From Naegleria gruberi (lineage: Eukaryota), in assembly GCA_000004985.1 (NCBI GenBank), contig GG738867.1: a stretch of 64,000 nt of DNA, one strand, 5' to 3'. Each line of letters begins with the position of its first letter. Position 1 is the first letter of the stretch. The position numbers and the translations under genes were made by a program. Positions 26,569 to 63,404 of this stretch are shown in pieces. The notes beneath the pieces are model-generated. The model worked only from the letters and a program-made list of their open reading frames with translations, was not told where the DNA came from and made no database searches.

Positions 26569-26581
26569 TTTTTTTTGTTAT

Positions 26582-33800: not shown

Positions 33801-35635
33801 CTTTGTACGGTTATGCCTTCTCTCCTCGTGAAGAATATTTGATTTTGAGTTTGTTTAATGAAACTCTCCACCTCGAAATTCAAAACAGTTCAATTGATAA
33901 CTTCTTGAACAACAACCCAGTTTTGATCAAGTTGGTTGTTAACTATTGCCATGAACGTATCCAAGGTAAACAATTCTTGCAAAAGGTTTTGTTCGATAAG
34001 ATCTTGGAACCAATCATTGAAGAAAAGGATTTGAACTTGAATTTGAACGCTGTTACTATTTTGAAGGAAAGAATTTCCCAACAAGAAGTTGAAACTGGTG
34101 TTAAGAGCGATATCAACATTAAGGATATGACCTATGAAAAGGCTATGCAAGATGAATACGTCAGTAAGCTCGTCCAACAACGTACCAAAAAGATGATTGA
34201 CATTTGTCAAGGTGTTTTGGATACATTGAATGACAACATTAACGAATTGCCATACGGTTTGAGATATATCTGTAGACAATTGAAGGTCATGTTGGGTAAG
34301 AAGAATCCAAATGCTACCGAAGAAGATATTAACCGTGTTGTTTCATATTTATTGTTCTTTAGATTCCTTAACGGTCCATTCTGTGGTTGTGACTCTTACA
34401 ACTTGACTAAGAAGAAGATTTCTGCCAGTATGAGAAATAATTTGGCTTGGATTTCAAAGGTTTTGATGCGTGTTTCTACATTCAAAGAATTCGATAAGGC
34501 TTATGACATTCACTTCTGTGTTGTCAATGAATGGATTCAACAAGCTATTCCTACTTTCGTTGAAAAGTTCATTAAGCCAGCTATTGTTATCCCAGAACCA
34601 GAAGAACAATTGGGTGTCCATCAATTTATTGAACTCACTCAAAAGAAGTCACCTTCTATTACTATTACCTTGAACGAAATTGCTCAAACTCATGGTTTGT
34701 TGGCTAAGTTCTTGAACAGAATTGCTCCAGACGAAAAGGATCCATTGAGAGAAGTTTTGAGCAACTTCAAGGACATGATTCCAGAACAAGTTGAATCAAC
34801 AAAGAATGAAGAAATCAGTTTGCCACTCCAAGTTAGAACTAACATTGAAAACTTGGATTTGGAAGTTAAGCCAGAACAATTGTACGAAATTGCTAAAGAA
34901 CACTTCCGTGGTATTTTACGTGTCATTACTCCACAACAATTGGGTGAAAATGTTGCTGAAACTGTAGATAAGGCTGAAAAGTATGCCGAAGAATTGATCG
35001 ATAGTTCTAAACAAGAAGCTGATGGTATTCAATTGAAGAGAAAGGTTGAAGAACTTAGAAAGGCTCTTCCAAAGTTGGCTGATGCTGAAATTCTCTCAGC
35101 AGCCAACGGTTATAGAAAATTGTTGACTGATATTACTAAGGAAATTCAAAACAGAGGTGAAGTTAGAAAGAGACAAGTTCGTGAATTGGAACGTTTAACC
35201 GAAAGTTTGGAATCCCTCAAGGAACATCAAAACTTCCTCAAGGAAAAGGACAAGAGTTTGGACGACTACGTCCAACAAACCCTTCGTAACTACTTTGAAG
35301 GAAAGAACAAGAGAAAGCAAAAGTCTGGAAAGAAACAAGTTTACAAGTTCAGCTACTCTCAACTTTCAGAGAAGTATAAGGTTATTGCCGAAATGACAGA
35401 AGGAGGTGCTTTGAAGAAGGGTATCAAATTCCAAATCTCTATGGATGAAGCTAATCCAGGTTTCTTTACAGTTGAAGCTAAATTGGCTGGTGCATCACTC
35501 AAGACAATTAACTTGCGTCTTGATGAACTTTTGGACAAACGTGGCAGAGGTGAAGCTCTTCTCAAACTCGATGGTGTTTCACTCAATGTAAATATGACTA
35601 TTCACATGATGAATAAGCTTTTCGTTAGCAAGTAA
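30876..35635 (+). CDS. IQGAP-related protein: calponin-homology domain + ~8 filamin/ABP280-type Ig repeats + RasGAP-related domain + RasGAP-C; 2 exons (30876..31188, 31398..35635)
   Basis: A 209 nt intron at 31189..31397 (gtatgt…taatag) joins …PDHYIF|EVTDLWELKNVWKVVHCLHTLSLHLYRNGL. This matches the IQGAP CH-domain motif LFETVDLYEKKNMPRVIYCIHALS. The repeats are of the form G-x-G-L…A…F-x-I-x-T/A-x-D-x-G-N. The RasGAP-related domain carries …LRYICRQLKVMLGKK… and …YLLFFRFLNGPF…. Total length is about 1516 aa, with very strong codon bias. Confidence 0.8.
31650..33350 (+). repeat. Filamin-type repeat coding array (about 8 units of ~95 aa)
   Basis: The translation shows a recurring …SG-x-G-(L/V)…V…A…F-x-(I/V)-x-(T/A)-(R/K)-D-x-(G/F)-G-N…Y-x-(V/F)-x-Y-T-P periodicity. 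Confidence 0.6.
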
Positions 35636-40644: not shown

Positions 40645-42864
40645 ATGAGCGGCAACAATGCCTACAGTTCTTTTGCCTCCAATCATCAATACGGAGGAGA
40701 GGAAGATGACGACGATCAGTATCATGAAGAGGTTGAAGACAATTTGGAATACGATAATAATTTAGATGATAGTTCTTATAGAAAGAGAAACTATTTGACT
40801 TACGAGGAATATGAATTGGATGAAGAGGACGAGAGATTAATAAGAGAGGAATTAGGAGAGTATGACCCTGAAAATAATCAGAGCCAAATGGAACAACACG
40901 AAGAGGAGGAAAACTTTGATGATATTACCGAAGAGTTCTTATTATCAAAAGTAAATGAGCTCAACAAATTGGCTATCCAAATTGATGTGCTGAGTTTCGG
41001 AGGTGACCAACAAGAAATAGAGGAGACTAGAGCTCAGATGGACAATATAATAGCCTTCATCTGCAAAGTTACTAAAGTCAAGAGAAATATAGAAAATTAC
41101 ATCAAATCAGATAATAAGCGTATTTCTTCATCCCTTCCTTCATTGTTCATTGATTTAAAAGCAGATATTAGGAAGTTGTTTCATACAGAAAGGTCAATAC
41201 TCTCACATACATCATTCAATACTACCCAGGAGCATAATGAACCTGAGGCTCCTAGGGAAACAAAACACTATAACAGTGTTGTTGATCACCATGTAGAAGC
41301 TTCGGGAGAATATGAAGATGATGCAGAGCAGTATCATCAGGAAGGGGATGAGGAAGAACATTATCAAGATGAAGAAGAACAGGAAGAACATGACGAAAAT
41401 CACAATGAAGAAGAACAGGAGAATGAACAAGAAATGCCTGAACCTTATGAACCATACGAGCCAACCTATTATGAAGATGATGTAGATTATACACTTGATG
41501 CTGAAGATGATGAGCTTTCCAACATATCAGAGGATGATTCAGATGATATTAAACAGTTAGATTTTCTAAGGGATCAATGTACGAAGAAGAGTATTGAATT
41601 AATTCAAGCAAGAAATGAGAGAGAAAAGGCCTTAACCACCTATCACTGCAATGAAATGATAAGGAAAGACCCAAATTCAAAAGAAAAATATCAGTTGGTG
41701 CAGCAATTGATTAATAATTGCCGTGCTGAGCTGGATAAACTTAATAAGGAAATTGAGAGATTCAGTAGAGAAGCCATTGAAATAAGGAAACAAACAGAGA
41801 TTAACAAACCAACGAGACCAAAACCTAATAAGAAATTGCCAAAAACTCCTGAAAAGAAGAGGATTGAGAGAATTGAACATATGGTTCAAGAAATAACAAC
41901 ACCTCGTGCAAATAAGGATTCGGTTGTAATGTTGACACCTTCACAATTAAAGGAAAGACAAGAAAACAGTGATCTTCAGAATATGTACAATAGACTGGAA
42001 GCAAGTTTGTCGAAAACCCCTCAGGCTAAAGAGTATGCGGATGAAAAACCAAAAGCAAGCAAGCCAAAGCCTCCAAAGCAGCCAAGTAATAACACAAGGT
42101 CAGTGGATCCAAATCTCTCAATGGAACCATCAAAAGAAAAGACAAGGCCAATGTCATCCTCTATAGCTGTGACTTCTGCCAATGACCCAAGAAAGAAAGC
42201 TCAAGAAAGGTTAAAGGAAAAAATTCAAAAAGAAAAGGAACAAAAGGAAAAGGAAGATTTGGAAAAGGCAGAAAAACTCAAAAAGTTGGAAGAAATATGC
42301 AGTAAGCAACAAACTATCATCCTCGAAGAAAGAAAAGCTCTAACAACCAAAAAATATCTCGAGGAAATCCTTTCAGATGATTCAGATGAGGAAAGAATGA
42401 AAGAAATGGAGGATGAAGAAAGAAGAAGAATGGAAGAAGAAAGAGTTGAAGAAGCCAGAAGAAAGGCGCTCCTTAGAGCTAAGGAAAAGAAAAGAAAAGA
42501 AATAGAGCGAGAAAAAGAAATGGAAGAAGAACGAAAAAAGAGAGAGGCTGAAAAGTGGAGAAAAAGGGATGAGGGTCTAATGGCATTCAAGCTTAAACAA
42601 GAAATGGAAAAGGAAAAGAAGATGGATGTGAGAACTTCAAAGCCAACTATGCCACAACAAGCTCCACAAATCATAAAACCAAAACAACAAAACAAAGAAG
42701 CAAAGCCGTCAACCACTTCTCAAAAGACAAGAAAATCAATGCCAGCCACTGCAGTAACAGATAGTCCTCTACTAGATGGCCTCAATACACGAGATGATGG
42801 CCACGACTATTTACAATTTTCACCACCACCGCCAATGTTTAGTACCAGTAAACTAAAGAAATAG
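40645..42864 (+). CDS. Highly acidic/charged coiled-coil protein (E/D/K-rich), unknown function
   Basis: The ORF is 739 aa with poly-E/D tracts and a K/E-rich C-terminal half. No domain was recognised. The antisense ORF 42225..42716 is a composition artefact. Confidence 0.5.
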   Translation: MSGNNAYSSFASNHQYGGEEDDDDQYHEEVEDNLEYDNNLDDSSYRKRNYLTYEEYELDEEDERLIREELGEYDPENNQSQMEQHEEEENFDDITEEFLLSKVNELNKLAIQIDVLSFGGDQQEIEETRAQMDNIIAFICKVTKVKRNIENYIKSDNKRISSSLPSLFIDLKADIRKLFHTERSILSHTSFNTTQEHNEPEAPRETKHYNSVVDHHVEASGEYEDDAEQYHQEGDEEEHYQDEEEQEEHDENHNEEEQENEQEMPEPYEPYEPTYYEDDVDYTLDAEDDELSNISEDDSDDIKQLDFLRDQCTKKSIELIQARNEREKALTTYHCNEMIRKDPNSKEKYQLVQQLINNCRAELDKLNKEIERFSREAIEIRKQTEINKPTRPKPNKKLPKTPEKKRIERIEHMVQEITTPRANKDSVVMLTPSQLKERQENSDLQNMYNRLEASLSKTPQAKEYADEKPKASKPKPPKQPSNNTRSVDPNLSMEPSKEKTRPMSSSIAVTSANDPRKKAQERLKEKIQKEKEQKEKEDLEKAEKLKKLEEICSKQQTIILEERKALTTKKYLEEILSDDSDEERMKEMEDEERRRMEEERVEEARRKALLRAKEKKRKEIEREKEMEEERKKREAEKWRKRDEGLMAFKLKQEMEKEKKMDVRTSKPTMPQQAPQIIKPKQQNKEAKPSTTSQKTRKSMPATAVTDSPLLDGLNTRDDGHDYLQFSPPPPMFSTSKLKK

Positions 42865-42889
42865 TATTTTTCAATAGATTACAAAAAAA

Positions 42890-43594
42890 ATGCCTGAAGA
42901 ACTCACACAATATTTCACAATCAATAAGCAACAGTTTCAACTCGAAACCACAATAGATTGGCAAGTAAAATCTGTTCATCACGAATTATCGGAATGTGGT
43001 TCATCTTCAGAAAGTTCTAAACGAAAGAGAATTAGCCTTTCCGATGACGTATCGAAATTAAGAAAAATACAGCACAACAATACAGAAATATTGCCACAAG
43101 ATATTCTGTGGGAAATAGTAAAATTTCTAGATGCAAAACAAATATGGTACGAAATTTGCATGATTTGCAAAGATTGGAATTATTGGATTCATTACGAATT
43201 TAATTCTAGAACAATGTGGAGAGACCTATATTTCACTGAATTGAAAATTGGATCACAACATCAAGCACATGATACCAAAGTGGATTATTTGCAAAGATTG
43301 GCTCAATATTCGTTTTCTAGAGACTTGAATTTGAAATTAACCATAAATTCTAGAATTAACCCACACTATTCAAGAAATACTGCATTGGTAGAAGTTATTA
43401 ATAATGTTGGACATTTGGTGCATATTGTGAAATATAATGAGATAGATACCTCCTTTAGTACCGTAGCAAAAGTTTCATATGATTTTGAAACAATTGTTTA
43501 TTCTAGAAAGGGAAATGGTGATTATGTCAAGTTTAGCTGCCATATTACAAACAGTTTAATGCAAGAGCTACGAAAGCCGTTATCTGGAAATTAA
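42890..43594 (+). CDS. Small F-box protein
   Basis: …ILPQDILWEIVKFLDAKQIWYEICMICKDWNYWI… is a good F-box match. The ATG is in aaaaaaaaATG context. Confidence 0.55.
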   Translation: MPEELTQYFTINKQQFQLETTIDWQVKSVHHELSECGSSSESSKRKRISLSDDVSKLRKIQHNNTEILPQDILWEIVKFLDAKQIWYEICMICKDWNYWIHYEFNSRTMWRDLYFTELKIGSQHQAHDTKVDYLQRLAQYSFSRDLNLKLTINSRINPHYSRNTALVEVINNVGHLVHIVKYNEIDTSFSTVAKVSYDFETIVYSRKGNGDYVKFSCHITNSLMQELRKPLSGN

Positions 43595-43854: not shown

Positions 43855-45720
43855 TTAGTGCTTGTCTTCTTTGTGAAACATTGATAGATAGTCTTTGTAC
43901 CATGATCTATGTGGATACTTTTTTCTATTGTCTTCTACTTGTTTCTGATATGAATATTCATCGGTCAATTCATTTTCACCAATTGGTCTCGTTCCATTAG
44001 CTGTTTTTTCTTTCAAAACTTTCAAAATTGTTTCCTCCATACTGAGACATCTCTTTTTCCATGTTGGATTTGCGACTAACTTATCGAGCCAATCTGGTAA
44101 GTGAACATCAGAGTAAATAATGTGTCCAAACCTTGTTGAATTCTTACCAACTCTGTACATGAAATAGACAAAGAAAATATCAACCATCACTCTTTCTTTT
44201 GGAACTGGATGGAAGGCTAGTGGTGCAGTATGTCCCACATTAATATATCCTTCCAGAACTTCATCAAATACTGTGCTTTGAGTGTGTGGAAATTGTCGTT
44301 TCTTAAACGTTGGTCCAAGATTCAAACAAGTGGTACAATATCTGACCACCAGAGGATTGGTGAGTTTAGATTCGTCATCATCCTCATCTGCTGTAAAGTA
44401 AGCAAGAGCTGATTGTGAGGCCTTGGGGTTTCCAAGAGTTCCAGGCTCATGATAACCAAGTGTTTCAATGCCAGTAACTTCTGTTCCTTTGAGGTCGTAG
44501 GCCTGAACATGCTTAAATACTTTCCAAACATCTTCAACTGGATATGGTAACAAGGTAACAATTTTGAAGAGTTTCAAACCATTCTTTCTGCCACTATCGA
44601 ACACATAGGAAGTTTTCGAATGAAACATCTGAGCTTTTGATGAAGATTTGGAATTTTTCATAGCTTGCCAATCAGGAGAATCTTCTAACAAACTCAATCC
44701 AAAATAAATGTCTCTATCGTAAATATAATTCTTTGTCAAATCTTTAGGTTTGTATCGAATATCCACATTGAATCCTCTTGAAATATCAACTGCAATACGT
44801 CTTGTAAATGCTTCACCTTGTAAATTGAGAAATTCAAACAATTCTTTCGATCTGTTAAATCTTGGAAATTGATCAATCTTTAAATCCAAGTTGACTGAAA
44901 AGATAATCTTTTCGAATAACACATCAGGATTCAACATTTCAAACAAATCAGTAAGTGATTTCATAGTTGATTGACTCATTTCAGATTCAATACTCGATTC
45001 ACTCAACTCTGATTGTGACCTTTCTAATAGTTTAGTTTCCATAGTTTCACTTCCTTTCTTCCCTTGTTTCTCTTGTTTTTGAAGGTGACCTTGCATGAGT
45101 GGAACAATTTCTTGATCCCAAATCTGCACCACATTTGAACTTGGTAAATTCAACTCTCTCTCACTTCCTGGTCTAATATACAAATCAATCAATGCACCAA
45201 CCGAATCGAATAGAATTTTACATGCTTTCAAACTCACATCCTGTTGTGAACTACTATTACTAGTACTCGTTGTTGCCCTATACTTGGCATACTCTTTCGA
45301 ATACTTTCCATAATCATTCAGAAACAACATTGGCTCCTGTGTACATGCCTTCTTTAAGTAATTTGAGAAAACTTCTCTTGCCTCCAAATTTGCCATCAAT
45401 TCATCGTAGAGAGCCATGTAGTGGGTGGCATCGAATTTCTTCTTTTTCTTTTCCTTGTAGATGATTTCTCCCTTTTCATTCTTTTTATTGTGATGATCTG
45501 CTGTTGTTGTTGTTGTTGATGACGATGCATGTTGTGGTTGATGGTGTTGGTGGGAATGGCTATTCGAAAGTGATGTATTGTTATTGGAATCTTGTGCGGA
45601 GGTGTTAGCTGTACTATTCGTTGGTTCGTTAGTGATAGTTGTACTATTTATTGAAGAGGATTCAATTAGTATTGGTGATGAGCTGAGAGGTTGCATTTCG
45701 GATTGCGTGGACGAAATCAT
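43855..45720 (-). CDS. RGS-domain protein with C-terminal START-like lipid-binding domain (tentative)
   Basis: After an S/T/N/H-rich N-terminus there is an RGS-like helix bundle (…YMALYDELMANLEAREVFSNYLKKACTQEPMLFLNDYGKYSKEYAKY…). The C-terminal ~220 aa have an alpha/beta pattern compatible with a START/Bet v1 fold. Confidence 0.45.
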   Translation of the reverse strand: MISSTQSEMQPLSSSPILIESSSINSTTITNEPTNSTANTSAQDSNNNTSLSNSHSHQHHQPQHASSSTTTTTADHHNKKNEKGEIIYKEKKKKKFDATHYMALYDELMANLEAREVFSNYLKKACTQEPMLFLNDYGKYSKEYAKYRATTSTSNSSSQQDVSLKACKILFDSVGALIDLYIRPGSERELNLPSSNVVQIWDQEIVPLMQGHLQKQEKQGKKGSETMETKLLERSQSELSESSIESEMSQSTMKSLTDLFEMLNPDVLFEKIIFSVNLDLKIDQFPRFNRSKELFEFLNLQGEAFTRRIAVDISRGFNVDIRYKPKDLTKNYIYDRDIYFGLSLLEDSPDWQAMKNSKSSSKAQMFHSKTSYVFDSGRKNGLKLFKIVTLLPYPVEDVWKVFKHVQAYDLKGTEVTGIETLGYHEPGTLGNPKASQSALAYFTADEDDDESKLTNPLVVRYCTTCLNLGPTFKKRQFPHTQSTVFDEVLEGYINVGHTAPLAFHPVPKERVMVDIFFVYFMYRVGKNSTRFGHIIYSDVHLPDWLDKLVANPTWKKRCLSMEETILKVLKEKTANGTRPIGENELTDEYSYQKQVEDNRKKYPHRSWYKDYLSMFHKEDKH

Positions 45721-45874: not shown

Positions 45875-45947
45875 GGGGATGTAGCTCACATGGTAGAGCG
45901 CTTCTTTAGCATGGAAGAGGTACGGGGATCGATACCCCGCATCTCCA
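45875..45947 (+). tRNA. tRNA-Ala (anticodon AGC)
   Basis: The sequence is GGGGATGTAGCTCACATGGTAGAGCGCTTCTTTAGCATGGAAGAGGTACGGGGATCGATACCCCGCATCTCCA. The G3:U70 Ala identity pair is present. The anticodon loop is TTAGCAT and the discriminator is A. A TTTT run lies about 7 nt downstream. ORF 45890..46078 is spurious. Confidence 0.85.
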
Positions 45948-45959: not shown

Positions 45960-47603
45960 TTACATGTACAAATTTTGGTATTCATATTCCATCCTTAATG
46001 GAACAAGTTGTGCAATTATTTGACTATCAGGTAAGAAGAATCCATTTTGCTTCACAGCTTCAATTTCAATTTCATTAGAAACCATTCCAAAATTGCTGAT
46101 GCAATACTTCAAAACAAGTCCGTTCCATTTAACAGCCTGAAGAATGAAATTTTGGTCGTATTGTAGATTAGTGCATTTTATGGATTCAGGATCCAATAAA
46201 ATACATTCCAATATAAATTCCTTATCCATTTTCAGTGTATCAGATGATAATGCCAAATTAGAACTGGATTGTTTAACTGCTTCTCTCGTAATTTCCTTAT
46301 CATTTTTGAATTCTTCCAAAAGGAAGGGATATTGTGAAGCGTCTTTCTTGATCATCTTCAAAATAAGTTCCCTATCATTTGATATGAATGGTAAGTTGCT
46401 CAATAGACGATAGCATCGAGGAGAATGAACGACCAGAGAGGTAGCAATGGGTGGATCTTGTATCATACCATGAGGTAAATAGATATCTAGAGTTTCGAGA
46501 GCTGATGGTGACATGCACTCAATACATCCCAATATAAAATCCTTATCATTGATTAATGATTCATCAACAAATTTCATTGAAGAGGATGATGAACAAACTG
46601 CCATAACCTTTAGCATGAGGTCTTTGTTTTTTCTCAATGTATGAGGAAGTTCGTTAAGGGCACAACAATTATGCCTTGCATAGTCAACCACTATATCCAG
46701 ATAATTTTTTTGGTAATTGTAGTTTCCAATAGATTTCGCCTGATTCAGAAACTCTTCATCCTTCAATAATTTTCCAGAAACATAATTCAAAGTTTCAATA
46801 TCTATCTTGACTGCCTCCATGACAATCTGCTTGTCTCTTCTAAATTCTTTTCCAGTAAAAAGCAGCACATGAGGATTAGTATGGATTAAGTGTAATATAA
46901 ACTCCTTTTCATTCTTCAACTGTTCATCGGCATAGAAAAAGGCAATTTCTGACACTTCTTTGACAGCTCTCTCAATAAGCTCCTTATTTTCTCTGTTTTT
47001 TGACAATTGAAAAACAGTATGAAATCCATGTATTTCCTCCCTCAAACAAGTTATGCATGCATCAATGTCTGTTTTCAGCTCATCATTCACTAATGTATTA
47101 TTTGAATAATTTCCTTCAATTGCCTTTTCCTCATAAACTATTACACCATTATTGTCATTGCAATATTCATCATCGTATTCTTGAGATTCCTTCCAACTCT
47201 CATAAGGCATATAAATAAAAGGAATATCGCAGTAATTGGCATAGTCAAGTAAATTAGAATTCTCCTCTATTATTTTCAATATAAAATCCCAATCTGTTTT
47301 CAACTCCATAGACATGTGATTTAAGGCATCGAAACAATCATCATTCTTCACAATAACATCTGTGATGAACTGTTTATCGGAACGTATTTCAATAGAGGCA
47401 TATTCAAAGGTATCGGGATAGGCTTCAATGTTTCTCTTCACATACTCTCTATCATTGCTAAATTCTATCGGAATGTAAACACTGTGTAATGTTAATCGAT
47501 TATTAAACCATTTAACCGTTGAATGAGAGGTTGAGTGAAATTTATAGCTGAGAAGTGATGAATTTGCCGATAAATCTAAAGTGATAATAACTTGTGACGA
47601 CAT
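45960..47603 (-). CDS. DUF4116-repeat protein (tandem ~35 aa repeats of the type DKEFILxAVKQNGxALKY)
   Basis: The repeats are seen in the translation (…DKEFILECILLDPESIKC…, …QNFILQAVKWNGLVLKYCISNF…, …EIEIEAVKQNGFFL…). The ORF-track start at 47636 is a TTG, so the first ATG at 47603 is used. Confidence 0.55.
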   Translation of the reverse strand: MSSQVIITLDLSANSSLLSYKFHSTSHSTVKWFNNRLTLHSVYIPIEFSNDREYVKRNIEAYPDTFEYASIEIRSDKQFITDVIVKNDDCFDALNHMSMELKTDWDFILKIIEENSNLLDYANYCDIPFIYMPYESWKESQEYDDEYCNDNNGVIVYEEKAIEGNYSNNTLVNDELKTDIDACITCLREEIHGFHTVFQLSKNRENKELIERAVKEVSEIAFFYADEQLKNEKEFILHLIHTNPHVLLFTGKEFRRDKQIVMEAVKIDIETLNYVSGKLLKDEEFLNQAKSIGNYNYQKNYLDIVVDYARHNCCALNELPHTLRKNKDLMLKVMAVCSSSSSMKFVDESLINDKDFILGCIECMSPSALETLDIYLPHGMIQDPPIATSLVVHSPRCYRLLSNLPFISNDRELILKMIKKDASQYPFLLEEFKNDKEITREAVKQSSSNLALSSDTLKMDKEFILECILLDPESIKCTNLQYDQNFILQAVKWNGLVLKYCISNFGMVSNEIEIEAVKQNGFFLPDSQIIAQLVPLRMEYEYQNLYM

Positions 47604-47694
47604 TTTTTTCCTGATTATGAACTTTAAACTTTGCAAAACATTAGGAACTTAATAGCATTTGAAACATCAATTTAGAAAATTCAGTTACAAAAAA

Positions 47695-49299: not shown

Positions 49300-51300
49300 T
49301 TAATATTGAACATATATTGGAGTATTAATTACTGGAGAGGATTGAACACTTTGAGTATTAATGTTTTGAGAAGTTGAAAAAATTGTTGATTTCTTTGGTT
49401 TGGCTGATGTGTGCTTTTTTGGTTGCTTTGATACTGGTTTTACAGTTGAAGTTGGAACGCAACGATGGACTGGCTTAGTTCCTCTTGGCTTTGGAGTTCT
49501 AACAGAGAGTAAATCAGAAGTTACTACATGTTTAACTGTTGGCTTTGGAGTTAAAGCAGGTATAACAGTTGGTTTTACAGAAACTGACTCAGATGGCTTT
49601 GTTGGATTGGTGGTAAGAACATTTTGGGAAGGTCTATTTCTTGGTCCATTGACTGGTTCTGAAATTGATTCAACTGTTGGCTTGATATATGAAATAACTG
49701 GTTTAACTGTTGACTTCGGAACTGTTGGAGTTGCTGTTGGCTTTGGAACTGAGCTACTATTTGGTTTTGGGTTTTACGCTAACTGGTTTAGTTGGTGTTG
49801 AATCAGGTTTAATTGAGTCAATGGTTTGCCCTCTGTTGGTTTAGAAACAGATTTAGGAGTCTTGATATCTGGAATAACTGGCTTATTGGTTGGTTTACCT
49901 GTTGGCTTTGAGGTTGCAGGTTTAATTGTTGGTTTTACAGAAGCTGACACAGATGGCTTGGTAACTACTGGTTTAACTTCAACAGGCTTTGGAGATTGGT
50001 TTAACTGTTGGCTTAACAACTACTGGTTTGACTGTTCCTCTTGGCTTTACATCTGTTTGTTTGATTGGATTTGCAGAGGAAACTGATGATACTGGCTTTG
50101 GGGTTGATACTGGTTTAACTTCAACAGGCTTTGGCTTTGAGATTGGCTTGACTGATGTGGGAGTGGAATCAGGTTTAGTTGTTGGCTTAACTGGTTTAGT
50201 TGACACAGGGTTGGTTGGGGCAGTTGTTGGTTTAGTAGAAGTTGGTTTTACAAAGCCATAAGATTTTGTTGGCTTTGTAACAAGTGTGAAATCTGCTGGG
50301 TTAGCCGATACACCATCTGTTGGTTTGACTGTTGGCTTAATAGATACTGGTTTCGTTGGTTTCATTGTTGGCTTAGTACCTGGTTTTTCAACTACAGTTG
50401 GTCTTTCACTATTGAGTAATTGAGTTGGCTTGTGTGCCGTTGGTTTTGGTGTTGGAACTGAGCTACTATTTGGTCTAGTAACAATTACTGGTTTAACTGG
50501 TTTTGGAGTTGCAGAATGTCTAACAGAGAGCAAATCAGAAGGCTTACTTGTTGGTTTAACTGTTGGCTTTGGAACTGTTGGAGTTGCTACAGGGTTAACT
50601 GTTGGTTTTACAGAAACTAACTCAGATAGCTTGGTAACAACTACTGGTTTAACTTCAACAGGTTTGGAGATTGGTTTAACTGTTGGCTTAACAACTGGTT
50701 TGACTGTTCCTCTTGGCTTTACAATGGAAACTGATGATACTGGTTTTGGAGTGGAAGCTGGTGGTTTTCCAACAGTTGGTTTAGTTGGTTTTACGCTAAC
50801 TGGTTTAGTTGGTGTTGAATCAGGTTTAATTGAAGTCAACTCTGTTGGTTTAGAAACAGATTTAGGAGTCTTGATATCTGGAATAACTGGCTTAACTCCG
50901 TTATTGGTTGGTTTAACTGTTGGCTTTGGTGTTGCAGGTTTAATTGTTGGTTTTACAGAAACTGACTCAGATGGCTTGGTAATAACTACTGGTTTGACTT
51001 CAACAGGCTTTGAGATTGGTTTAACTGTTGGCTTTGGAGTTGATACTTGTTTAACCTCAACAGGTTTTGGGCTAGAGGTGAAAGTAGCAACACTGACCGG
51101 TTTAGTTGTTGGCTTAACCGGTACAGGTTTTGTTAGTACTGGAGAAGGCTTTACATCTGGAACTACTGTTGGTGATTTAACTGGGTTTGATGGTTTAACT
51201 GTTGGTGTTGGAACAGGTTTAACAGAAACTGACCTGACAGTGAATGAGTTTGGTTTTGTAGTTGGTGATGAATTTGCTTTTGGTGGTTCAATCTTAACAA
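49300..51300 (-). repeat. Mucin-like tandem repeat array (~150-170 nt units), with at least two frame disruptions in its 3' part
   Basis: Repeat units continue after the stop at 49979..49981 in a -1 frame (ORF 49774..50019) and then in a third frame to the stop at about 49300. One inserted G is visible at about 49985 (aaagcctgttgaagtt versus aaacctgttgaagtt in other units). Plus-strand ORFs 49400..51422 are antisense artefacts. Confidence 0.6.
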
Positions 51301-52492
51301 TGGCCTTATTATCAATAATTTTATCCAATGTAGATAGTAACTTATTGGTTGATAAGGTGTTCAAAGCACTGGCAACCTTCTTTTCACTTGCAGGTGTAAC
51401 ATCTTGCTTCTTTGCTTCTTGAACAGCGGCTTTAGAAACAATTTTAACTAAATCCTTCTTATCCATTTGTGAAATGGCTTCCTTGGCAACTTCCTTACTT
51501 GACACCTTTTCCATTTTCTGCAATTTAAGCATACTCTTGGCAAAACTTGAAGCATTATCTGGATTGATCAACGCATCCACGTAACATGACTTGAAATCGT
51601 TTGGATGATCCTTTTCAGAGATACCTGCCTTAGCACACGCTTTGCGAGCTTGTTCTTTTTCCTTTGAAGTTGCTTCTTTAAGTTCAGCATTAACACTTGA
51701 TGATTTGATCAAGGCAACCCTCTTCATTGGTTTGGCAAAGTAACTTTCCTTTGGAACACCCATGGTGGAGCTTACACAATAACCATAGTTGATATCAAGA
51801 GTTGCAGGAGCTTCAAAGGAAATATCGATATAATTACCTTGTTTGTAAACACTCCAACCATTCATATTAATAATTGCTCCAGAACTACTCTTAATTACAA
51901 TATTTGGACCAAATTTAAGAACATTATATGTAACTGAGGCACCCTTAGAAGTCAATGAAATTGTTTTTCCAGAAGGGATAGTTTGTTTTACACCATTAAT
52001 AAGAAAATATTGACCGTTAGCATGATATTCCAAAACTGATTCTTCATCGAGTGTCATTGCAATAGCAATATTACCAGAAACATGTCTTAATTTACCGGTA
52101 CGAGCTTGAGCCATGATGGACTTGTCAGCTGCTTCAGCCAAAACATATTCACCAATTGAATAGTAATCAAATGTTTTGCCTGTAAAAGTTCTCAAGTGAG
52201 GATCTCCTGTTGAATGACATTTCTATACCAATTCAAATAGTTTGATAATAATACATGTAATTGGGTGCCAACAACAAGAACACACATGAAAGATGATATA
52301 ACATGCAGATATAAACAATCTTCAATATTTCATAATACCTACATTAACAACAGCCCTAATGATGGCATTGGCATTGATAACAGCAGTAGGCTTGCTACGG
52401 CGACGAGCTTCAACCTCTGATGTAAGCATCATACTGAGCAATAGAAGCAACAGCAAGGATGCAACCATCAATTGAGAGTACTGTCTCTTCAT
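49979..52492 (-). CDS. Secreted mucin-like protein: signal peptide exon (52492..52343), VWD domain, long Thr/Pro/Lys/Val-rich repeat region; 120 nt intron 52223..52342 (GTAGGT donor)
   Basis: Exon 1 encodes MKRQYSQLMVASLLLLLLLSMMLTSEVEA…AVVN. Exon 2 begins KCHSTGDPHLRTFTGKTFDYYSIGEYVLAEA, which is the VWD hallmark GDPH…TFDG…Y. The repeats are KPVEVKPVV(T)TKPSESVSVKPTIKPATPKPTVKPT. The frame breaks at about 49980 and the repeats continue in other frames down to about 49300. Confidence 0.65.
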
Positions 52493-52793: not shown

Positions 52794-52874
52794 CGCAGAC
52801 TGCAGGATTCGAACCTACGAAGGTTTCCCCAACAGATTTCAAGTCTGTCGCCTTAACCACTCGGCCAAGTCTGC
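52794..52874 (-). tRNA. tRNA-Ser (anticodon TGA), long variable arm
   Basis: The minus-strand sequence is GCAGACTTGGCCGAGTGGTTAAGGCGACAGACTTGAAATCTGTTGGGGAAACCTTCGTAGGTTCGAATCCTGCAGTCTGCG. The acceptor stem is perfect, the anticodon loop is CTTGAAA and the discriminator is G. An oligo-T run lies about 8 nt downstream on the minus strand. ORF 52706..52897 is spurious. Confidence 0.85.
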
Positions 52875-56474: not shown

Positions 56475-58052
56475 TCAATAGTAATCTTCATCTGGTTTCG
56501 CATATTTTCCTGCGAGGGTGATGATTTCTGGATCTTGTTTAAGCTCAGAATCCAACATTTTGAAAACACACCCATTCTCTTTCACAGCTATCAAAGCCAG
56601 TTCTCTATCGTTCTTCAATTCTTTAGGAATATTGCTAAATACATGTCCACAATTCGAGAGAGCAATCTTTACAATTTCTAGATCTGCTTTGAATCCATCT
56701 GGAATTCTTGGGTATGCATATCCATATTTTGAGAGTAATTTCATGATAGATTCACGGTCATTTAAGAATAGATCTGCCAAATCACAACGGGTAATCAAAT
56801 AGCCATGTTCAACAGCAATCTCTTTCAATTTTTGTTTAAAATTCTCAGATTCTGAATAGTCCTCTCTGTAATAACCCATCATTGAAATAGGATTCTTCAA
56901 AATAGCCCTCAACCACAGTTCTTCATCTTTAGCCAAGCTTTCGAAATAACCATGCACCAAAATCAATGGATTAATATCAATTAATTCCTTAATGAATTCC
57001 CGGTCAGATTCAATAGAATTTGTATCTATGTTTTGAATATTTGTTGGATTACTTTCGATTAACATTTTGATAATGTCCCTATCAGCAGACAAGGAGCTAT
57101 GGATACAGCGAGCTAAATCAGAGCCAATTTGGAATGCTTCCATAAAAACTTTCTTTGAACTTGTAAGTTTTTCATTAAGAGAGCTGAAGAATGATCCAAA
57201 AGATTCACATCTTGGTGTCTCTGTTGAAAATAAACTGGATTTGAGTAGATTATTATAGGCTTTAGGACCTCCATTCATAATACATTTGAACACATCGAGG
57301 TAAATAGATGAAAACTCGTTTCTTTCAAATGCTTTTTCCAATCGAGGTAAGATAACTCGTGTATCAAAATTCTTTTGTCCATGTTCTTGTGTGATAAATT
57401 CCACAATCTCAAATACCATCTCTTTTTCAAACTCATTTCTTCCTATACATAATTCGTCTGATATTTCTAACAACCTATCAGCATCTTGTTCATCATCACA
57501 ATTACTCAACAAATCGGTCGATCCAAATATTAAATCAATTCTTTTTGATTTTCTATCAAATCTTTCAACACTAACTTCAGGTCTATTGCACTTTCTCTGA
57601 TGATTTGGTTTTTTGAAGAAATCATCTAATTTCTTCATCATTCCCAAATATTGATAAATAATTTGCAATATAATTCCATCGGTCACTTCAATTTTAATTT
57701 GGGATAATCTTTCTCTCAACACACAATTCATCACAACACAATAGGAATCATTGGTGCCACCATCACATGCCTGATAAATATTATCTCTGGTCGGTAAGAG
57801 CATCGTTAGAGGCGATTGCAATCCTTGATAATAGCAGCTGCTTTCTAAATTCATTGGTGCTAGTGATGACAAGGATTTTAATATACAGACAAATTGTTGA
57901 TTTCTCATTCGGAGAGCAATTATTCTCTCGTATTGTTGTTGCTGATTGGCAATCATAACATGATTTGGAAGCTTTTTAATTATTCTAAAATCTTCTTGGT
58001 TGTTGGAGGTGGAATTTAAGAGTTTGATGATTGATCGCTTTGATTGTTCCAT
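56475..58052 (-). CDS. DUF4116-repeat protein (paralogous in repeat type to 45960..47603)
   Basis: The C-terminal third contains …ADLEIVKIALSNCGHVFSNIPKELKNDRELALIAVKENGCVFKMLDSELKQDPEIITLA…. The start is placed at the ATG in aaaaaaaATG context (58052); an upstream in-frame ATG lies at 58133. Confidence 0.55.
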   Translation of the reverse strand: MEQSKRSIIKLLNSTSNNQEDFRIIKKLPNHVMIANQQQQYERIIALRMRNQQFVCILKSLSSLAPMNLESSCYYQGLQSPLTMLLPTRDNIYQACDGGTNDSYCVVMNCVLRERLSQIKIEVTDGIILQIIYQYLGMMKKLDDFFKKPNHQRKCNRPEVSVERFDRKSKRIDLIFGSTDLLSNCDDEQDADRLLEISDELCIGRNEFEKEMVFEIVEFITQEHGQKNFDTRVILPRLEKAFERNEFSSIYLDVFKCIMNGGPKAYNNLLKSSLFSTETPRCESFGSFFSSLNEKLTSSKKVFMEAFQIGSDLARCIHSSLSADRDIIKMLIESNPTNIQNIDTNSIESDREFIKELIDINPLILVHGYFESLAKDEELWLRAILKNPISMMGYYREDYSESENFKQKLKEIAVEHGYLITRCDLADLFLNDRESIMKLLSKYGYAYPRIPDGFKADLEIVKIALSNCGHVFSNIPKELKNDRELALIAVKENGCVFKMLDSELKQDPEIITLAGKYAKPDEDYY

Positions 58053-58203
58053 TTTTTTTAATTGTTTACAATAATTACATCTTGATTTAAGATTGTGTAA
58101 TATATTGCATTTTCCTATTAAATTATATTTCATTAATAAAATCTTTTTGACCCAAATTCAAATTTCTGACCGTTACATAACAATTTGAAAAAAAAGTCGC
58201 AAA

Positions 58204-59351: not shown

Positions 59352-62300
59352 TCAGTAAATGGAAAGATTCAAAGTCGAGTTGGAGTTGTTGTATCGTGAA
59401 AGTAGATCTATCCATTCCTTCTGCGTATCGAAAGTAATCCATTCATTCTCTTCATCCAAATAATAGTATCTCAAGCTGGAACAGTCCTTTTTGGTCCTTT
59501 CTGAAATAATATTTGCCAAGTCATTCAAGCCAATAATGGATCCACTGGTAGGCAAAATTTAAACATATCCTTATTTTTGTATTTCTTCAATCTAACTTTG
59601 ATATTAATCACCTTATTCAATTCTTGTTTTGGTGATTTGAGTAGTTTTTCATTTTCATAGGTTTCAATACCTTCAAGCCAGTCACGTAATTTAGGTGAGA
59701 ATATGCTTAACTCCATCAGATCAGTAATCTTATCCCAATCAAGATTAGAGTCGAGAGCAACAGCACCAATCAATGCCTCCATCACATCTGAAATAGATTT
59801 GGCTTTAAGTTTCAGATCTTTCTTTACAAACAACAGTTGATCAATTCTAAAGTCTTTGGCTATCTTTTCCAATGCTGTATTTCTTACAAAATTGGAACGG
59901 AACGTGTGCATTTCACTCTGGTCCAGATAAAAATTATGGAACATTGTTCGAGAAACATATAAATCCAAGACAGCATCGCCAACGAATTCCAGAGTTTCAT
60001 AATTCACATTAAAACCAATATCAACAGAGGGGTGAATTAATGTGTAGTATGCATATAGAATATTTTTGAATTTGTATCCAATAATTCGTTCCAATTCTTT
60101 AGCATTTTTCTCAATGTCTGGTATTGTGTTTTCAATGATACGCTTGACATATTCTGGATTTGAATTCAATATAAATTTGTCAGCAATAAAATTCTGCTTT
60201 TTGACCAGTTTCAAATCTCTAGCCAATTTTACACCTTCTTCAATACTGTGTTTACCAACGAGACCAATTAAACTTTCAATTATATCAGCACGTACTTTTT
60301 TGCCTTTCACAGAAGCTTCCTGTTCGCTTTTAGAGAAAGCAATACCAGCCACATTGTGATGATAGTACTGAGTTTCGATAAAGAAGTCCATAATAGATAA
60401 TTTTTGGGCCAACTTCCTCAAATTGGAGTTTGAAACTTTGGCAGTCTTTTCCTCATTATAAAATTTCATATTCTCGAATGGAAATCTCAGAACTATATCC
60501 AAAACAACAGCATATTTCAATATAGTATCACCAAAAAATTCGTATCTTTCATAGTTAGTATCCAGATTCTGACTAGTTCTGTGCGTTATTGCATTTCTTA
60601 ACTCTGACAAGTTAATATAACCACAACTTGGAAACATTTGATTTTTCAAATCGTGGGCTACAAGGGTCTGCTCTACTAAACTCATCAATGTTCCTTCATT
60701 GGACGTCTTAAATACTGCTCTTAGGGATTCGATAAAATCTATCCTTAAACTAGTTGGTTTGCAGAATTCTGGTATCAACATGACATATCTGTGGTACTTG
60801 AGAGAATATGCAGATAACATTGGTTGATTTGAATCACACATAATTTCATATCTATCCTTCAAATAGCTTTGGTAAGTTATAGTAGATCCTTGTTTCTCAA
60901 AAGATTCTAAGGGTGTAGAACTCTCATCAATATAATTTGGAGCATAAAAATCCTTATTATATGTGGTTACAATAAAATAATCGATCGGTACCCTCACTCC
61001 TAATCTCAAATGATCTAATATAGTCATTGACTGGGGATAATCTTTCTCACTCTGGGATAACTCTTTTTCGAATGTATATATCACATTCCAATCTATGACA
61101 TCCCTTGGTTGGTTTCCTCTACAAGAAGGAAGTACCAAGTAGAATCTTCCATCTCCATAAAAATAATCTTTAAGAGCATAATTATTGTAAATAATTCTAC
61201 ATAATCTCATGTAAAATGCAATCAATTTTTCATATTCAGACTTGGTTACTGTTATGAATCCACAAGGGAAAAGTTTCAGCCATAAAGGATGCATAGTCAC
61301 TTCAAACGGATATTGAATCTCTCCAAAAGTCAAAAGAGCAGTCATTTCTTCCTTTCCGTTGCTATTGATTATCATTTGACTAACAAATAATTTGACATTA
61401 TTGTTGTCTTTAGGCCCCTCATATCTAATTGGCTTTGGAATGTATGTATCTTTCTTCTCTATCTCTTCGTCATCTGAAAGATTCTCTATTGAAGAAATGA
61501 GTGGTTCAATATCCTCTTGTGTATCATTTGTAATAATAACCTTCTCAGATTTAATATATTCTTTTAGCTCCTCCAAGGCAGTATCTACAATGATGCTTCG
61601 CTCATTGTTACCCATATTGGTTAACATGATGATTTGGGAATAATCATCCTTATCATAAAGTACTACATATCTTGAAAGTTCGTGCCTCGCTCTACCCATA
61701 GACTGGATATGTTCTCTAGTTGTGTTGCAAATATCAAATTGAACCACTAAAGAGCATTTGGAAATGTTCAGACCCTCTTCTCCGGCTTTTGTAGCTACGA
61801 GAAGTCGAGTAGTGTGTGAAAATTCCTTCACTACAGTTGCTTGAGCTTGTCGAGACATAACTGAACTTCCTATCAACTCTTTACAATTTAGAGGTATAAA
61901 CTTTCTATACATTCTAAACATTTTTACAATTGCCTTTACATGAACAATTCGCTCAGCAAATATGATACATCTCATATTTTCGTTTGTATTTTCATATGTA
62001 TCGACTAAATCAAATAGAATTTTGACCTTATCTGAAATGAAAGGTGAAGAATTAATTTCATTCATACTTGAAAACTCAATTGGTTGATTCAAGTTAAAAA
62101 TTGGATAAAATGATTTGAAAGACTCAAAAACATCCAACTCACATATTAGTGAAATAATTATAAGACTTCCAATCAAACCTAATTCACGATAATTCTTCTC
62201 TATATCATCAACTGATATATCTCTAAAATTATGATATGAATGAAACGTTTTCAATGCATTCAATGGCTCTATCAACTCACTCTTAGATGAATAAGCTACG

Positions 62301-63169
62301 CTATGTTGTCTCGGGTTGTTGACATGTTTTTTCATCTCTTCCATGTAATCATAAGGTACTTTGATGGAAGCATCAAGGCTAAATTCTAATTTGGCCTTTC
62401 TCAAAAATAAGGTATGTTCATTAAGACTTGTCTTGTAGAGAGATTGAGAAGCCGGTGTCGCAGTAAGACCTAAAATTTTAGGAAGCTCAATTGGTTGTCT
62501 ATCTTTAAGGAAATTGAAATTATATGCTAATAGTGAAGGATCAATAGGCTTGTTGTTGTGATAATAATCTCTCATCAATTTAACATAGGGATGATCCTTA
62601 GTAGCATGGTGAGCCTCATCAAAAACCAATAACAAGATATCTTCAAAAGAAATTATTTGACTCTGAAGAGCATTCAACAATATTTGAGGAGTGCTCACAA
62701 TAACATTCCAAGATTTGCTCGAATCAATTGTAAAGTCCTTCTTAATTTTCATTTTGCTACATTCCCTTTTGTAGAAATATTTGAAAATAGCCTCCTGTTG
62801 TTGTTTCCTCAATGCAGTCGTTGGAACCAAGAAGAATATCTTCTTTGTTAGTTTCTTCTTATCAGGTGGTCCATTAGTTGGTGGTTTCTTCTGATCAGAA
62901 ATGCAACATGAACACTTTGAGGATAAAAAGTATTCATCTCCCATATATTCCTTTTTATCATTTTGATGTAATAATTGATCAATTAAAAGACAGGCTAGAA
63001 GTGTTTTTCCTGTACCTGTTGGTAGAATACAAATTGAGTTTCCATCGATTGATTCCCGAAGCAATTCCAATTGATAGGCTCTCGGTTTTTCAATGGTAAT
63101 AATTGTATTATTATTCGAATCATTAGTATTATCACCTGTTTGTGTCGACAGTGATGGTTGAGAAAGCAT
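59352..63169 (-). CDS. Dicer-like protein: DExH helicase + HELICc + two RNase III domains, followed by a PB1-like domain that is split by a frameshift at ~59525-59555
   Basis: The helicase carries ILPTGTGKTLLA and FDEAHHA, plus HELICc (…LVATKAGEEGLNISKCSLVVQFD…SMGRARH). RNase IIIa has ERYEFFGDTILKYAVV and RNase IIIb has ETLEFVGDAVLDLYVS. The main frame ends …INIKVRLKKYKNKDMFKFCLPVDPLLA* at 59525. The overlapping -1 frame (59352..59555) continues …SIIGLNDLANIISERTKK…LRYYYLDEENEWITFDTQKEWIDLL. Together these read as a PB1 domain (Lys-containing beta1-beta2 plus an OPCA-like acidic motif). The ORF-track start at 63211 is a TTG; the first ATG is at 63169. Confidence 0.75.
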
Positions 63170-63404
63170 CGTTTTACTTGTTGAACAATTTTTAGGCTTT
63201 GAATAATGCAATTCTAATATTGTTGGCCAAGTGTTCGGAATAATTTAACATTTAACTCTTTCTACATTCAATATATTTAGAAATTATTTAACACAATTAA
63301 TTGGTGATTCATATTCGGGGAGTAGTTCTTCTCCCTGCAAGGTACAGCCTTCTTGTTTAACAACACAATTTTTAAAAAGAATTAAAAATCAAATTTTAAA
63401 TAAA

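What the first reader, a model, noticed from the sequence alone, without database searches (positions are those of the whole stretch)
49300..52492. Mucin-like VWD gene whose tandem-repeat region carries multiple frame disruptions
After a clean signal peptide, intron and VWD domain, the ~50 aa Thr/Pro/Lys repeat units run in frame for about 1.7 kb. They then continue in two other frames, with one inserted G visible at about 49985 and a further shift at about 49775, before a terminal stop near 49300. This is either a collapsed or mis-assembled repeat array, or a mucin gene undergoing rapid repeat turnover or pseudogenisation. The antisense strand stays open for about 2 kb because of composition.
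Basis: seen in the sequence. Interest (0 to 1): 0.5.

Follow-up and report, generated by a model that had tools for sequence, protein, structure and literature searches.

The report
Frame-broken tail of Naegleria VWD gene
A secreted von Willebrand-D-domain protein gene of the amoeba Naegleria gruberi has three single-base indels that put the last quarter of its proline/lysine-rich tail out of frame; this is either a consensus error in the 2010 Sanger draft or a recent truncating mutation, and is ordinary either way.

Summary
The window is Naegleria gruberi NEG-M nuclear DNA. The minus-strand gene at 52492-49300 is already deposited as NAEGRDRAFT_48959 (XP_002677408.1, 711 aa). That model starts at an internal ATG and stops at the first frameshift-induced TGA (49979).

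Confirmed:
- A signal-peptide exon, a 120-nt GT-AG intron and a C-x-x-GDPH VWD module.
- VWD rests on a family profile against FCGBP, MUC5B, MUC2 and VWF, and on a Foldseek fold match.
- A basic Pro/Val/Lys/Thr-rich tail.
- Three frame breaks within 225 nt.

- Only two frames are used, in the order 0, +1, 0, +1.
- The breaks lie at 49992-49987, 49816 and 49773-49760.
- There is no regular 50-aa tandem array; the main signal is one 97.4%-identical internal duplicate about 1020 nt away.
- S+T is 26%, below the usual 40% criterion for a mucin PTS domain.
- The longest contiguous antisense open stretch is 1 kb, not 2 kb.

Cause of the breaks: a collapsed repeat, a bridging intron, recoding and an antisense gene are all disfavoured. 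A draft-consensus error (about 0.5) and a genuine recent truncation (about 0.4) cannot be separated without reads. VWD domains in Naegleria are already published. Interest is low.

The parts
52343..52492 (-). Exon 1 (50 codons): ATG at 52492-52490, signal peptide about aa 1-29 (52492-52406), then RRRSKPTAVINANAIIRAVVN. This exon is absent from the deposited model.
   Evidence: Signal peptide plus VE[ASG]-RR aligns with paralogues and orthologues. The deposited P0122 starts at the internal ATG 52114.
52223..52342 (-). Intron 1: 120 nt, GTAGGT...TATAG, 44% T, with in-frame stops.
   Evidence: Removing it joins AVVN|KCHSTGDPH, which aligns with IQKCKSEGDPH and IKRCQSLGDPH in family members.
51773..52222 (-). 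VWD-type beta-sandwich module (about aa 51-200), including Cys52 and the GDPH motif (52207-52196).
   Evidence: Pfam VWD 18.6-20.6 bits, below the gathering score of 22.9. Family profile against PDB: FCGBP 1.4e-45, MUC5B 5e-16, MUC2, VWF. AF2 core pLDDT about 80-90. Foldseek top 34 hits are all VWD D-assemblies, core rmsd 3.2-3.8 A.
51404..51667 (-). Helical module with two invariant cysteines (C246, C263; 'C-KAGI..HP..F..C..D'), conserved across the heterolobosean family and in the presumably bacterial P0001.
   Evidence: Alignment A1 invariant columns; helices 236-323 in the model.
49982..51289 (-). In-frame basic Pro/Val/Lys/Thr/Ser-rich low-complexity region (436 aa), with irregular degenerate repeats.
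   Evidence: Composition P 21%, V 17%, K 16%, T 14%, S 11.5%. No TRF array. Lags.
50786..51034 (-). Copy A1: the in-frame template-like copy of block B.
   Evidence: 228 matches and 6 mismatches (97.4%) against block B.
49769..50014 (-). Block B: a recent diverged internal duplicate (A2-like left flank, A1-like body) that carries all three frame breaks plus private in-frame indels (-3, +9).
49987..49992 (-). Break 1: one extra base (ATC TCC AAA G CCT), shifting frame 0 to frame +1.
49979..49981 (-). TGA that ends the ORF as assembled (797 aa with exon 1; 711 aa in the deposited model NAEGRDRAFT_48959).
49815..49830 (-). Break 2: one missing base (TTGACT^CAATT against TTGACTTCAATT), just after a private 9-nt insertion GGCAAACCA (49830-49822). 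It shifts frame +1 back to frame 0. In frame +1 this stretch runs into the TAA at 49776-49774.
49760..49773 (-). Break 3: the window in which the reading must return to frame +1. It lies between the frame +1 TAA (49776-49774) and the frame 0 TAG (49759-49757). It is readable as CC->CCC in GTAAAACC[C]AAAACCAAAT.
49300..49773 (-). Tail in frame +1: 157 codons plus TAA (49302-49300). It has no ATG, GTG or TTG, has a single Cys (HRCVP), and ends 25 nt from the stop of the convergent neighbour gene (49275).
   Evidence: (open in 1 of 20000 shuffles).

Best explanation
What the gene is (shown): NAEGRDRAFT_48959 of Naegleria gruberi NEG-M, one member of a heterolobosean family of secreted proteins. 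Its parts, in order:
- a signal peptide;
- a VWD beta-sandwich that opens with Cys-x-x-x-GDPH;
- a two-cysteine helical module;
- a long, fast-evolving, basic low-complexity tail.

How it probably works (inferred):
- The protein is exported.
- The invariant GDPH may self-cleave at Asp-Pro, as in FCGBP, MUC2 and RGM.
- The extended Pro/Val/Lys/Thr tail, possibly O-glycosylated, would act as a spacer or matrix element.

The frame breaks:
- Three 1-nt run-length changes lie within 225 nt: C->CC or +G at 49992-49987, TT->T at 49816, and CC->CCC at about 49770.
- All three sit inside a 97.4%-identical internal duplicate.

My best single reading of the cause:
- They are base-level consensus errors in the Sanger-only 2010 draft.
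- Possible sources are low-quality reads, or the merging of two alleles that differ by in-frame indels.
- The real gene would then encode a protein of about 1023 aa ending at the TAA at 49300.
For: Identity and architecture:
- Organism and gene identity.
- Architecture and VWD assignment.

For the error reading:
1. All three breaks are 1-nt changes in short homopolymer runs.
2. They cluster in 225 nt, while the other 2.9 kb of the gene, including 1.3 kb of equally repetitive sequence, has none.
2a. The other same-strand frame switches in the window that I examined are explained by canonical GTAAGT or GTATGT introns, or by separate genes.
3. Block B differs from its template copy by only 6 substitutions but by three 1-nt indels. 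That ratio is much higher than expected for natural divergence.
4. After the breaks the homologous frame stays open for 157 codons (1 of 20000 shuffles). It ends 25 nt from the neighbour's stop, a natural gene end in this compact genome.
5. The assembly is Sanger-only (PMC8040595), and the strain is reported to be heterozygous (PMC9928731).
6. At break 1 the sequence ATCTCCAAAGCCT equals the gap-wise union of the two variant states ATCTC-AAAGCCT and ATCTCCAAA-CCT. A consensus caller can produce exactly this.
Against: - No read-level or independent sequence could be obtained.
- The locus lies deep inside a gap-free 64-kb stretch with no N. Three errors in 225 nt would need an unusually poor patch of 8x Sanger consensus; the 8x coverage figure is from my own recollection.
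- Block B also carries private in-frame indels (-3, +9) that cannot be base-calling errors. The block is therefore genuinely indel-prone.
- The union pattern at break 1 is equally produced by simple duplication of a C in vivo.
- Family tails are highly variable and non-homologous, so a truncated tail could be tolerated.
Confidence: 0.5

Rival explanations
1. Genuine recent mutation. In the sequenced haplotype, the tail of this gene has been truncated by a frameshift, so the product is 797 aa ending ...KPISKAC. The downstream 680 nt would be a young, decaying remnant that has picked up two further 1-nt indels. Alternatively, all three indels arose together during an error-prone duplication or template switch that created block B. 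The N-terminal VWD module and 436 aa of tail would remain functional.
For: - The breaks are present in the deposited assembly, and the deposited model stops at the TGA.
- Block B is a distinct, mosaic copy with 7 private substitutions and private in-frame indels. This shows real, ongoing indel turnover exactly here.
- Breaks 1 and 3 sit at the edges of the A1-like tract, as expected for imprecise junctions of a conversion or duplication event.
- Tails in this family are non-conserved and range from about 200 to more than 1000 aa.
- Four of the six substitutions are non-synonymous and hit the otherwise conserved SE[SL]VSVKPT motif, which fits relaxed constraint.
- An open 157-codon remnant is not improbable for a young lesion. 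By my own estimate, the chance of no stop after about 30 substitutions is roughly 0.3.
Against: - Three independent 1-nt indels against six substitutions is far above usual neutral ratios.
- All lesions cluster in 225 nt.
- The intact tail frame and natural gene end fit an intact gene at least as well.
Confidence: 0.4
2. Collapsed or mis-joined repeat array. The assembler merged reads from different repeat copies, so the real locus would have more or different units.
For: The region contains internal duplicates. Break 3 lies where similarity to copy A1 ends and a 22-nt exact match to 50471-50450 begins.
Against: - No tandem array was found.
- The copies lie about 340 and about 1020 nt apart, with distinct flanks that Sanger-length reads would span.
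- Block B is not a blend of A1 and A2. It has 7 private substitutions and private +3, -3 and +9 indels.
- The shared sequence at the putative junction is only a few bases, too short to drive a false overlap.
Confidence: 0.05
3. The breaks are bridged biologically, either by a spliceosomal intron that removes block B or by programmed ribosomal frameshifting or RNA editing. A full-length protein would then be made from the sequence as it stands.
For: 190 GT...AG pairs of length 3n+1 can formally join frame 0 to the frame +1 tail without a stop. AAA-G at break 1 could in principle allow a +1 slip of tRNA-Lys.
Against: - No candidate has the GTAAGT, GTATGT or GTAGGT donor seen in every verified intron of this window.
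- Block B is coding-like in composition (A 39%, C 27%, T 21%), against 44% T in intron 1.
- Block B is 97.4% identical to coding sequence of the same gene.
- Recoding would need three events of different sign within 225 nt, with no recognisable signals.
- To my knowledge, no insertional editing of nuclear transcripts is known in Naegleria.
Confidence: 0.03
4. The real gene is on the plus strand, using the long antisense open frames.
For: Plus-strand open stretches of 332, 143, 94 and 89 codons cover the region.
Against: - Their length equals the codon-shuffle expectation: 288 observed against 294 +/- 90.
- They have no Pfam match.
- They also change frame across the region.
- The minus strand carries a signal peptide, an intron and a VWD module with homologues.
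Confidence: 0.01

Closest known systems
Heterolobosean 'VWFD domain-containing' proteins: N. gruberi NAEGRDRAFT_49892 and NAEGRDRAFT_59485; N. fowleri FDP41_012263 and FDP41_005632; N. lovaniensis C9374_012355; Willaertia magna ABK040_003113
   Same: - Where the deposited model is complete, they share a signal peptide, a Cys-x-x-x-GDPH VWD module, a two-Cys helical module and a long low-complexity tail.
- Identity is 29-44% over the N-terminal 300 aa.
   Different: - Tails are unrelated in sequence and composition: K/R/A-rich coiled-coil-like or S/T/K/E-rich, against P/V/K/T-rich here.
- Some members place the module C-terminally or have two modules.
- Only this member shows a frame-broken tail in the data seen here.
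VWD domains of metazoan gel-forming mucins, VWF and FCGBP (PF00094)
   Same: - Sequence and fold of the VWD beta-sandwich, including the C-x-x-GDPH-x-TF-G start.
- GDPH is the autocatalytic Asp-Pro cleavage motif of FCGBP and of the MUC2 and MUC5AC C-terminal VWD (my own knowledge).
- VWD in Naegleria is already noted by Lang et al. 2016 (PMC4948705).
   Different: - There is a single VWD module.
- No C8, TIL, E or CK domains were detected.
- Only 4 cysteines are present in the module.
- The tail is not a canonical PTS domain.
Proline-rich, lysine-rich extended regions such as plant proline-rich cell-wall proteins or extensins, and the titin PEVK segment (comparison from my own knowledge, not tested)
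   Same: The composition is dominated by P, V and K, with short degenerate motifs (PTVKP, KPVEVKP), and is predicted to be extended and disordered.
   Different: There is no sequence homology, Thr/Ser content is substantial, and the organism and context differ. The resemblance is compositional only.
Frameshift artefacts or 'low-quality protein' calls in draft Sanger assemblies, and unitary pseudogenes
   Same: Clustered 1-nt indels that break an otherwise intact ORF whose downstream frame stays open.
   Different: Which of the two categories applies cannot be decided here.

Membership tests
VWD domain (Pfam PF00094 / PROSITE VWFD) | The protein's own score reaches Pfam's gathering threshold. 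| tested here: not met
   18.6 bits (full protein) and 20.6 bits (N-terminal 324 aa), against a cut-off of 22.9. The match covers profile positions 1-112 of 156.
VWD domain (Pfam PF00094 / PROSITE VWFD) | Homology to bona fide VWD domains at family (profile) level. | tested here: met
   8 of 9 aligned family members hit PF00094, best E = 2.5e-9. The family profile hits FCGBP at 1.4e-45, MUC5B at 5e-16, and MUC5AC, MUC2 and VWF. UniProt names the N. fowleri and N. lovaniensis homologues 'VWFD domain-containing'.
VWD domain (Pfam PF00094 / PROSITE VWFD) | VWD beta-sandwich fold. | tested here: met
   The AF2 model core has pLDDT of about 80-90 (overall mean only 62.8). The top 34 Foldseek PDB hits are all VWD D-assemblies, with 143-147 columns at rmsd 3.2-3.8 A.
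VWD domain, GDPH-autocleaving subset (FCGBP, MUC2/MUC5AC VWD4, RGM) | GDPH motif at the start of the domain; actual Asp-Pro cleavage. | tested here: inconclusive
   The motif is present (52207-52196) and is conserved in all 8 members that include this region. Cleavage itself cannot be tested with these tools.
Gel-forming mucin (as defined in Lang et al. 2016) | Three N-terminal VWD-C8-TIL units and a C-terminal cystine knot. | tested here: not met
   Only one VWD module, and no C8, TIL or CK Pfam hit.
Gel-forming mucin / mucin-like PTS domain | PTS region with Ser+Thr typically >=40% and Pro >5% (PMC4948705). | tested here: not met
   S+T is 26.1% overall and at most 31% in any 100-aa window. 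Pro is 20%. K+R total 112 against 26 D+E.
Tandem-repeat array | Head-to-tail copies of a unit with a constant period. | tested here: not met
   TRF finds nothing at score >=50. The top peptide lag is 339 aa, and the lag near 47 aa is only z = 3. Self-BLAST shows dispersed imperfect copies.
Pseudogene or truncated allele | Disabling lesions are present in the genome itself, not only in the assembly. | not testable with these tools
   The lesions are present in the deposited assembly. No reads or second assembly were reachable.
Pseudogene or truncated allele | Loss of transcription or translation of the downstream part. | not testable with these tools
   No expression data are accessible, and no paper mentions the gene.

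The most novel reading that the evidence does not exclude
The three indels are real and arose together when block B was created by an error-prone duplication or template switch inside the gene. The locus would then be a snapshot of how the low-complexity tails of an early-branching, GDPH-bearing VWD family are remodelled and truncated. It would show repeat-driven birth and death of a 'mucin-like' tail outside animals, with the short form still functional.
Probability: 0.15. Interest if true: 0.3.

Novelty: already known. Interest (0 to 1): 0.12.

Why it matters
It matters little beyond annotation.

Practical outcome:
- The deposited model NAEGRDRAFT_48959 is wrong at both ends.
- At the 5' end it lacks the signal-peptide exon and the CHSTGDPH start of the VWD domain.
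- At the 3' end it stops at a frameshift that may be an artefact.
- A corrected model would run 797 aa as assembled, or about 1023 aa if the indels are errors.
- That correction would help anyone studying secreted VWD proteins of Naegleria, a family relevant to the pre-metazoan origin of the mucin/VWF D-domain.

If the breaks are real, the locus is a routine example of frameshift truncation in a fast-evolving low-complexity tail.

Tried and rejected
Searches that found nothing:
1. Exact-product look-ups of four neighbouring ORFs and of P0122, to get the scaffold's gene calls or other assemblies. None is on record.
2. Two metagenome scans for a near-identical strain or close orthologue, one with protein patterns and one with an exact 23-mer from the GDPH region. 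Both were empty.
3. A literature search for the locus tags and accessions gave 0 papers.
4. The Naegleria genome review PMC4929615 is not held.

Tool caveat:
5. The first word-index homology search with the N-terminal 386 aa returned only a weak ENA hit. It missed the identical deposited protein P0122. I therefore do not rely on that tool's negatives.

Explanations tested and rejected:
6. Tandem array: TRF found nothing.
7. Conserved C-terminus shared with the closest paralogue: no similarity, E about 3. The idea that a conserved C-terminal Cys motif proves the tail is functional stays anecdotal.
8. Intron bridging: 190 formal GT-AG pairs exist, but none has a canonical donor.
9. Antisense gene: the open frames are explained by codon composition and have no domains.
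10. Other abutting same-strand ORF pairs as evidence of widespread frameshift errors in the assembly. Those I examined are canonical introns or separate genes. The automated intron finder was imperfect: it missed the verified 19541 intron because of a search-range edge.
Full report
ORGANISM AND LOCUS
- The window is compact, about 34% GC, standard-code eukaryotic DNA.
- ORF 28186-30186 is 100% identical to an NCBI 'acyl-CoA oxidase-like protein, partial [Naegleria gruberi]' on a 424,055-bp scaffold. The N. fowleri and N. lovaniensis orthologues are 63% identical.
- The only N. gruberi genome listed in the omics review table I consulted is the Sanger-only NEG-M assembly GCA_000004985 of January 2010 (PMC8040595).
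- The strain is reported to be heterozygous (PMC9928731 citing Fritz-Laylin 2010).

GENE MODEL
On the minus strand the model is as follows.
- The ATG at 52492-52490 opens a 50-codon exon encoding MKRQYSQLMVASLLLLLLLSMMLTSEVEA|RRR... Its 12-residue hydropathy peaks at 3.1.
- A 120-nt intron at 52342-52223 (GTAGGT...TATAG, 44% T, in-frame stops) follows.
- Exon 2 starts at 52222 with KCHSTGDPHLRTFTGKTFDYY.
- This junction and the signal peptide plus VE[ASG]-RR align with paralogues and orthologues.
- Exon 2 is open for 747 codons to the TGA at 49981-49979.
- The deposited protein P0122 is NAEGRDRAFT_48959 / XP_002677408.1 / D2VEU5, 711 aa.
- It is this ORF read from the internal ATG at 52114 to that TGA.
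- It therefore lacks the signal peptide and the GDPH motif, and it ends at the first frame break.

THE N-TERMINAL MODULE
- Alone, the protein scores 18.6-20.6 bits on Pfam VWD, below the gathering cut-off of 22.9.
- An exhaustive phmmer search found 232 relatives at E <= 1e-3. They include N. gruberi paralogues (44% and 30% identity) and N. fowleri, N. lovaniensis and Willaertia magna proteins. UniProt names several of these 'VWFD domain-containing protein'.
- In a 9-sequence alignment, 8 members hit PF00094 (best 2.5e-9).
- The family profile hits FCGBP (1.4e-45), MUC5B (5e-16), MUC5AC, MUC2 and VWF.
- An AF2 model has mean pLDDT of 62.8, with a beta core of about 80-90. Its top 34 Foldseek PDB hits are all VWD-containing D-assemblies, with the core at 3.2-3.8 A.
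- GDPH is conserved in every member that includes this region.
- A helical module with two invariant cysteines follows.
- VWD in Naegleria is already published (Lang et al. 2016, PMC4948705).

THE TAIL
- From 51289 the protein becomes P (21%), V (17%), K (16%), T (14%), S (11.5%).
- S+T is 26% overall and at most 31% per 100 aa. This is below the typical >=40% of mucin PTS domains.
- The region is strongly basic, with 112 K/R against 26 D/E.
- TRF finds no tandem array.
- The strongest peptide lag is 339 aa (z = 5.0), and the lag near 47 aa is only z = 3.0.
- Self-BLAST shows dispersed imperfect copies. The main one is 51034-50519 against 50014-49498.
- Tails of family members are unrelated to each other.

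THE FRAME BREAKS
- tblastn of the upstream in-frame peptide against the downstream DNA places the homology in frame 0 only down to 49988 (95% identity). It then runs in frame +1 from 49989 to 49411 (E = 3.7e-47).
- The strongest DNA self-similarity lag of the whole region is 1018 nt, which is not a multiple of 3.
- Block B (50014-49771) is 97.4% identical to copy A1 (51034-50786): 228 matches and 6 mismatches.
- Within that block B differs from A1 by +1, -3, -9, +9 and -1, with a further break at its 3' edge.
- Break 1 is an extra base in ATC TCC AAA G CCT (49992-49987). It is followed at once by the TGA.
- Break 2 is a missing T (TTGACT^CAATT, 49816), 5 nt after a private 9-nt insertion.
- Break 3 must lie in 49773-49760, between the frame +1 TAA (49776-49774) and the frame 0 TAG (49759-49757). 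It is readable as CC->CCC.
- The reading then stays open in frame +1 for 157 codons to the TAA at 49302-49300. That happens in 1 of 20000 shuffles.
- This tail contains no ATG, GTG or TTG, and it ends 25 nt from the convergent neighbour's stop at 49275.
- Repairing the three sites gives a protein of 1023 aa, against 797 aa as assembled.
- So two frames are used, not three, and there are three breaks.

WHAT IT IS NOT
- Collapsed repeat: unlikely. In a three-way alignment, block B has an A2-like left flank and an A1-like body. It also has 7 private substitutions and private +3, -3 and +9 indels, so it is a distinct genomic copy.
- Intron: unlikely.
  - Verified introns in this window are 44-47 and 120 nt long, T/A-rich, with GTAAGT, GTATGT or GTAGGT donors.
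  - No canonical-donor intron links the main ORF to any downstream open stretch.
  - The 190 formal GT-AG bridges are what a sequence full of GTT, AAG and CAG codons gives by chance.
  - Block B has coding-like composition.
- Recoding: very unlikely. It would need three shifts of different sign within 225 nt.
- Antisense gene: no. The open frames match the codon-shuffle expectation (288 against 294 +/- 90), are at most 332 codons long, and have no domains.

REAL MUTATION OR DRAFT ERROR
Points favouring an error:
- All three lesions are 1-nt run-length changes.
- They cluster in 225 nt of a 3.2-kb gene.
- The ratio of 1-nt indels to substitutions against the 97.4%-identical template is 3:6.
- The downstream frame and gene end are intact.
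- The assembly is an unfinished Sanger draft of a heterozygous strain.
- Break 1 equals the gap-wise union of the two variant states seen in A1 and A2.

Points favouring a real lesion:
- The locus is deep inside a gap-free contig, with no N in the window.
- The same block carries in-frame indels that cannot be base-calling errors.
- Breaks 1 and 3 sit at the edges of the A1-like tract.
- The family's tails are evidently dispensable in sequence and length.

I put a draft error at about 0.5, a real truncation at about 0.4, and everything else at about 0.1. No independent sequence of this locus could be reached.

VERDICT
The core observation is right. Several details are corrected, and the cause stays unresolved between two mundane options. 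The gene and its family are already in the databases and the literature. Interest is low. The useful product is a corrected gene model.

Noticed in passing
window 52114-52492 (minus strand): The deposited model NAEGRDRAFT_48959 (XP_002677408.1) starts at the internal ATG 52114. It omits exon 1 (signal peptide), the 120-nt intron and the CHSTGDPH start of the VWD domain. The closest paralogue's model (NAEGRDRAFT_49892, 'MEEQHVEARGGRYY...') also looks truncated or mis-spliced at its 5' end.
   Followed up: partly
window 15821-18672 (minus) and 18998-22224 (plus): Two divergently transcribed protein-kinase paralogues are each split at the same point of the kinase domain (HR|DLKP). The introns are short and canonical: 19541-19587 GTAAGT...ACAG (47 nt), and 18173-18130 GTATGT...CAAG (44 nt). 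The intron position is conserved between the paralogues.
   Followed up: partly
window 26568-26585 (minus) and 42864-42890 (plus): Two head-to-tail gene pairs are separated by only about 13-25 nt between the stop codon and the next ATG. Both have the same A-rich start context (ACAAAAAAA(A)ATG). These are unusually tight spacers even for this compact genome.
   Followed up: no
window 28186-30186 (plus): The acyl-CoA oxidase ORF is 666 aa and aligns over 98% of its length to the 686-690-aa N. fowleri and N. lovaniensis proteins. The deposited N. gruberi protein is 'partial', 459 aa. This is another under-called model in this scaffold.
   Followed up: no
window 45960-47636 (minus) and 56475-58133 (minus): Two proteins with multiple DUF4116 repeats flank the locus (10 matched stretches in the first). 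Two RGS-domain ORFs lie at 12485-14677 and 43855-45720.
   Followed up: no
window 52794-52874 (minus); also 15599-15679 and 45875-45947 (plus): tRNA-Ser(TGA) lies about 300 nt upstream of the VWD gene's ATG on the same strand. tRNA-Ser(AGA) and tRNA-Ala(AGC) lie elsewhere in the window.
   Followed up: no
P0001 (ENA metagenome protein, 400 aa): This Ala/Gly/Val-rich, presumably bacterial protein shares the GDPH VWD module and also the following two-cysteine helical segment (ACLQAGV...DACTLDV) with the Naegleria family. The two-part module may therefore be older or more widely distributed than heteroloboseans.
   Followed up: no
window 31382-35635 (plus), with the CH-domain ORF at 30867-31388: An IQGAP-like gene combines a CH domain, four filamin repeats, RasGAP and RasGAP_C. 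A Dicer-like gene (helicase, PAZ and two RNase III domains) lies at 59525-63211 (minus).
   Followed up: no
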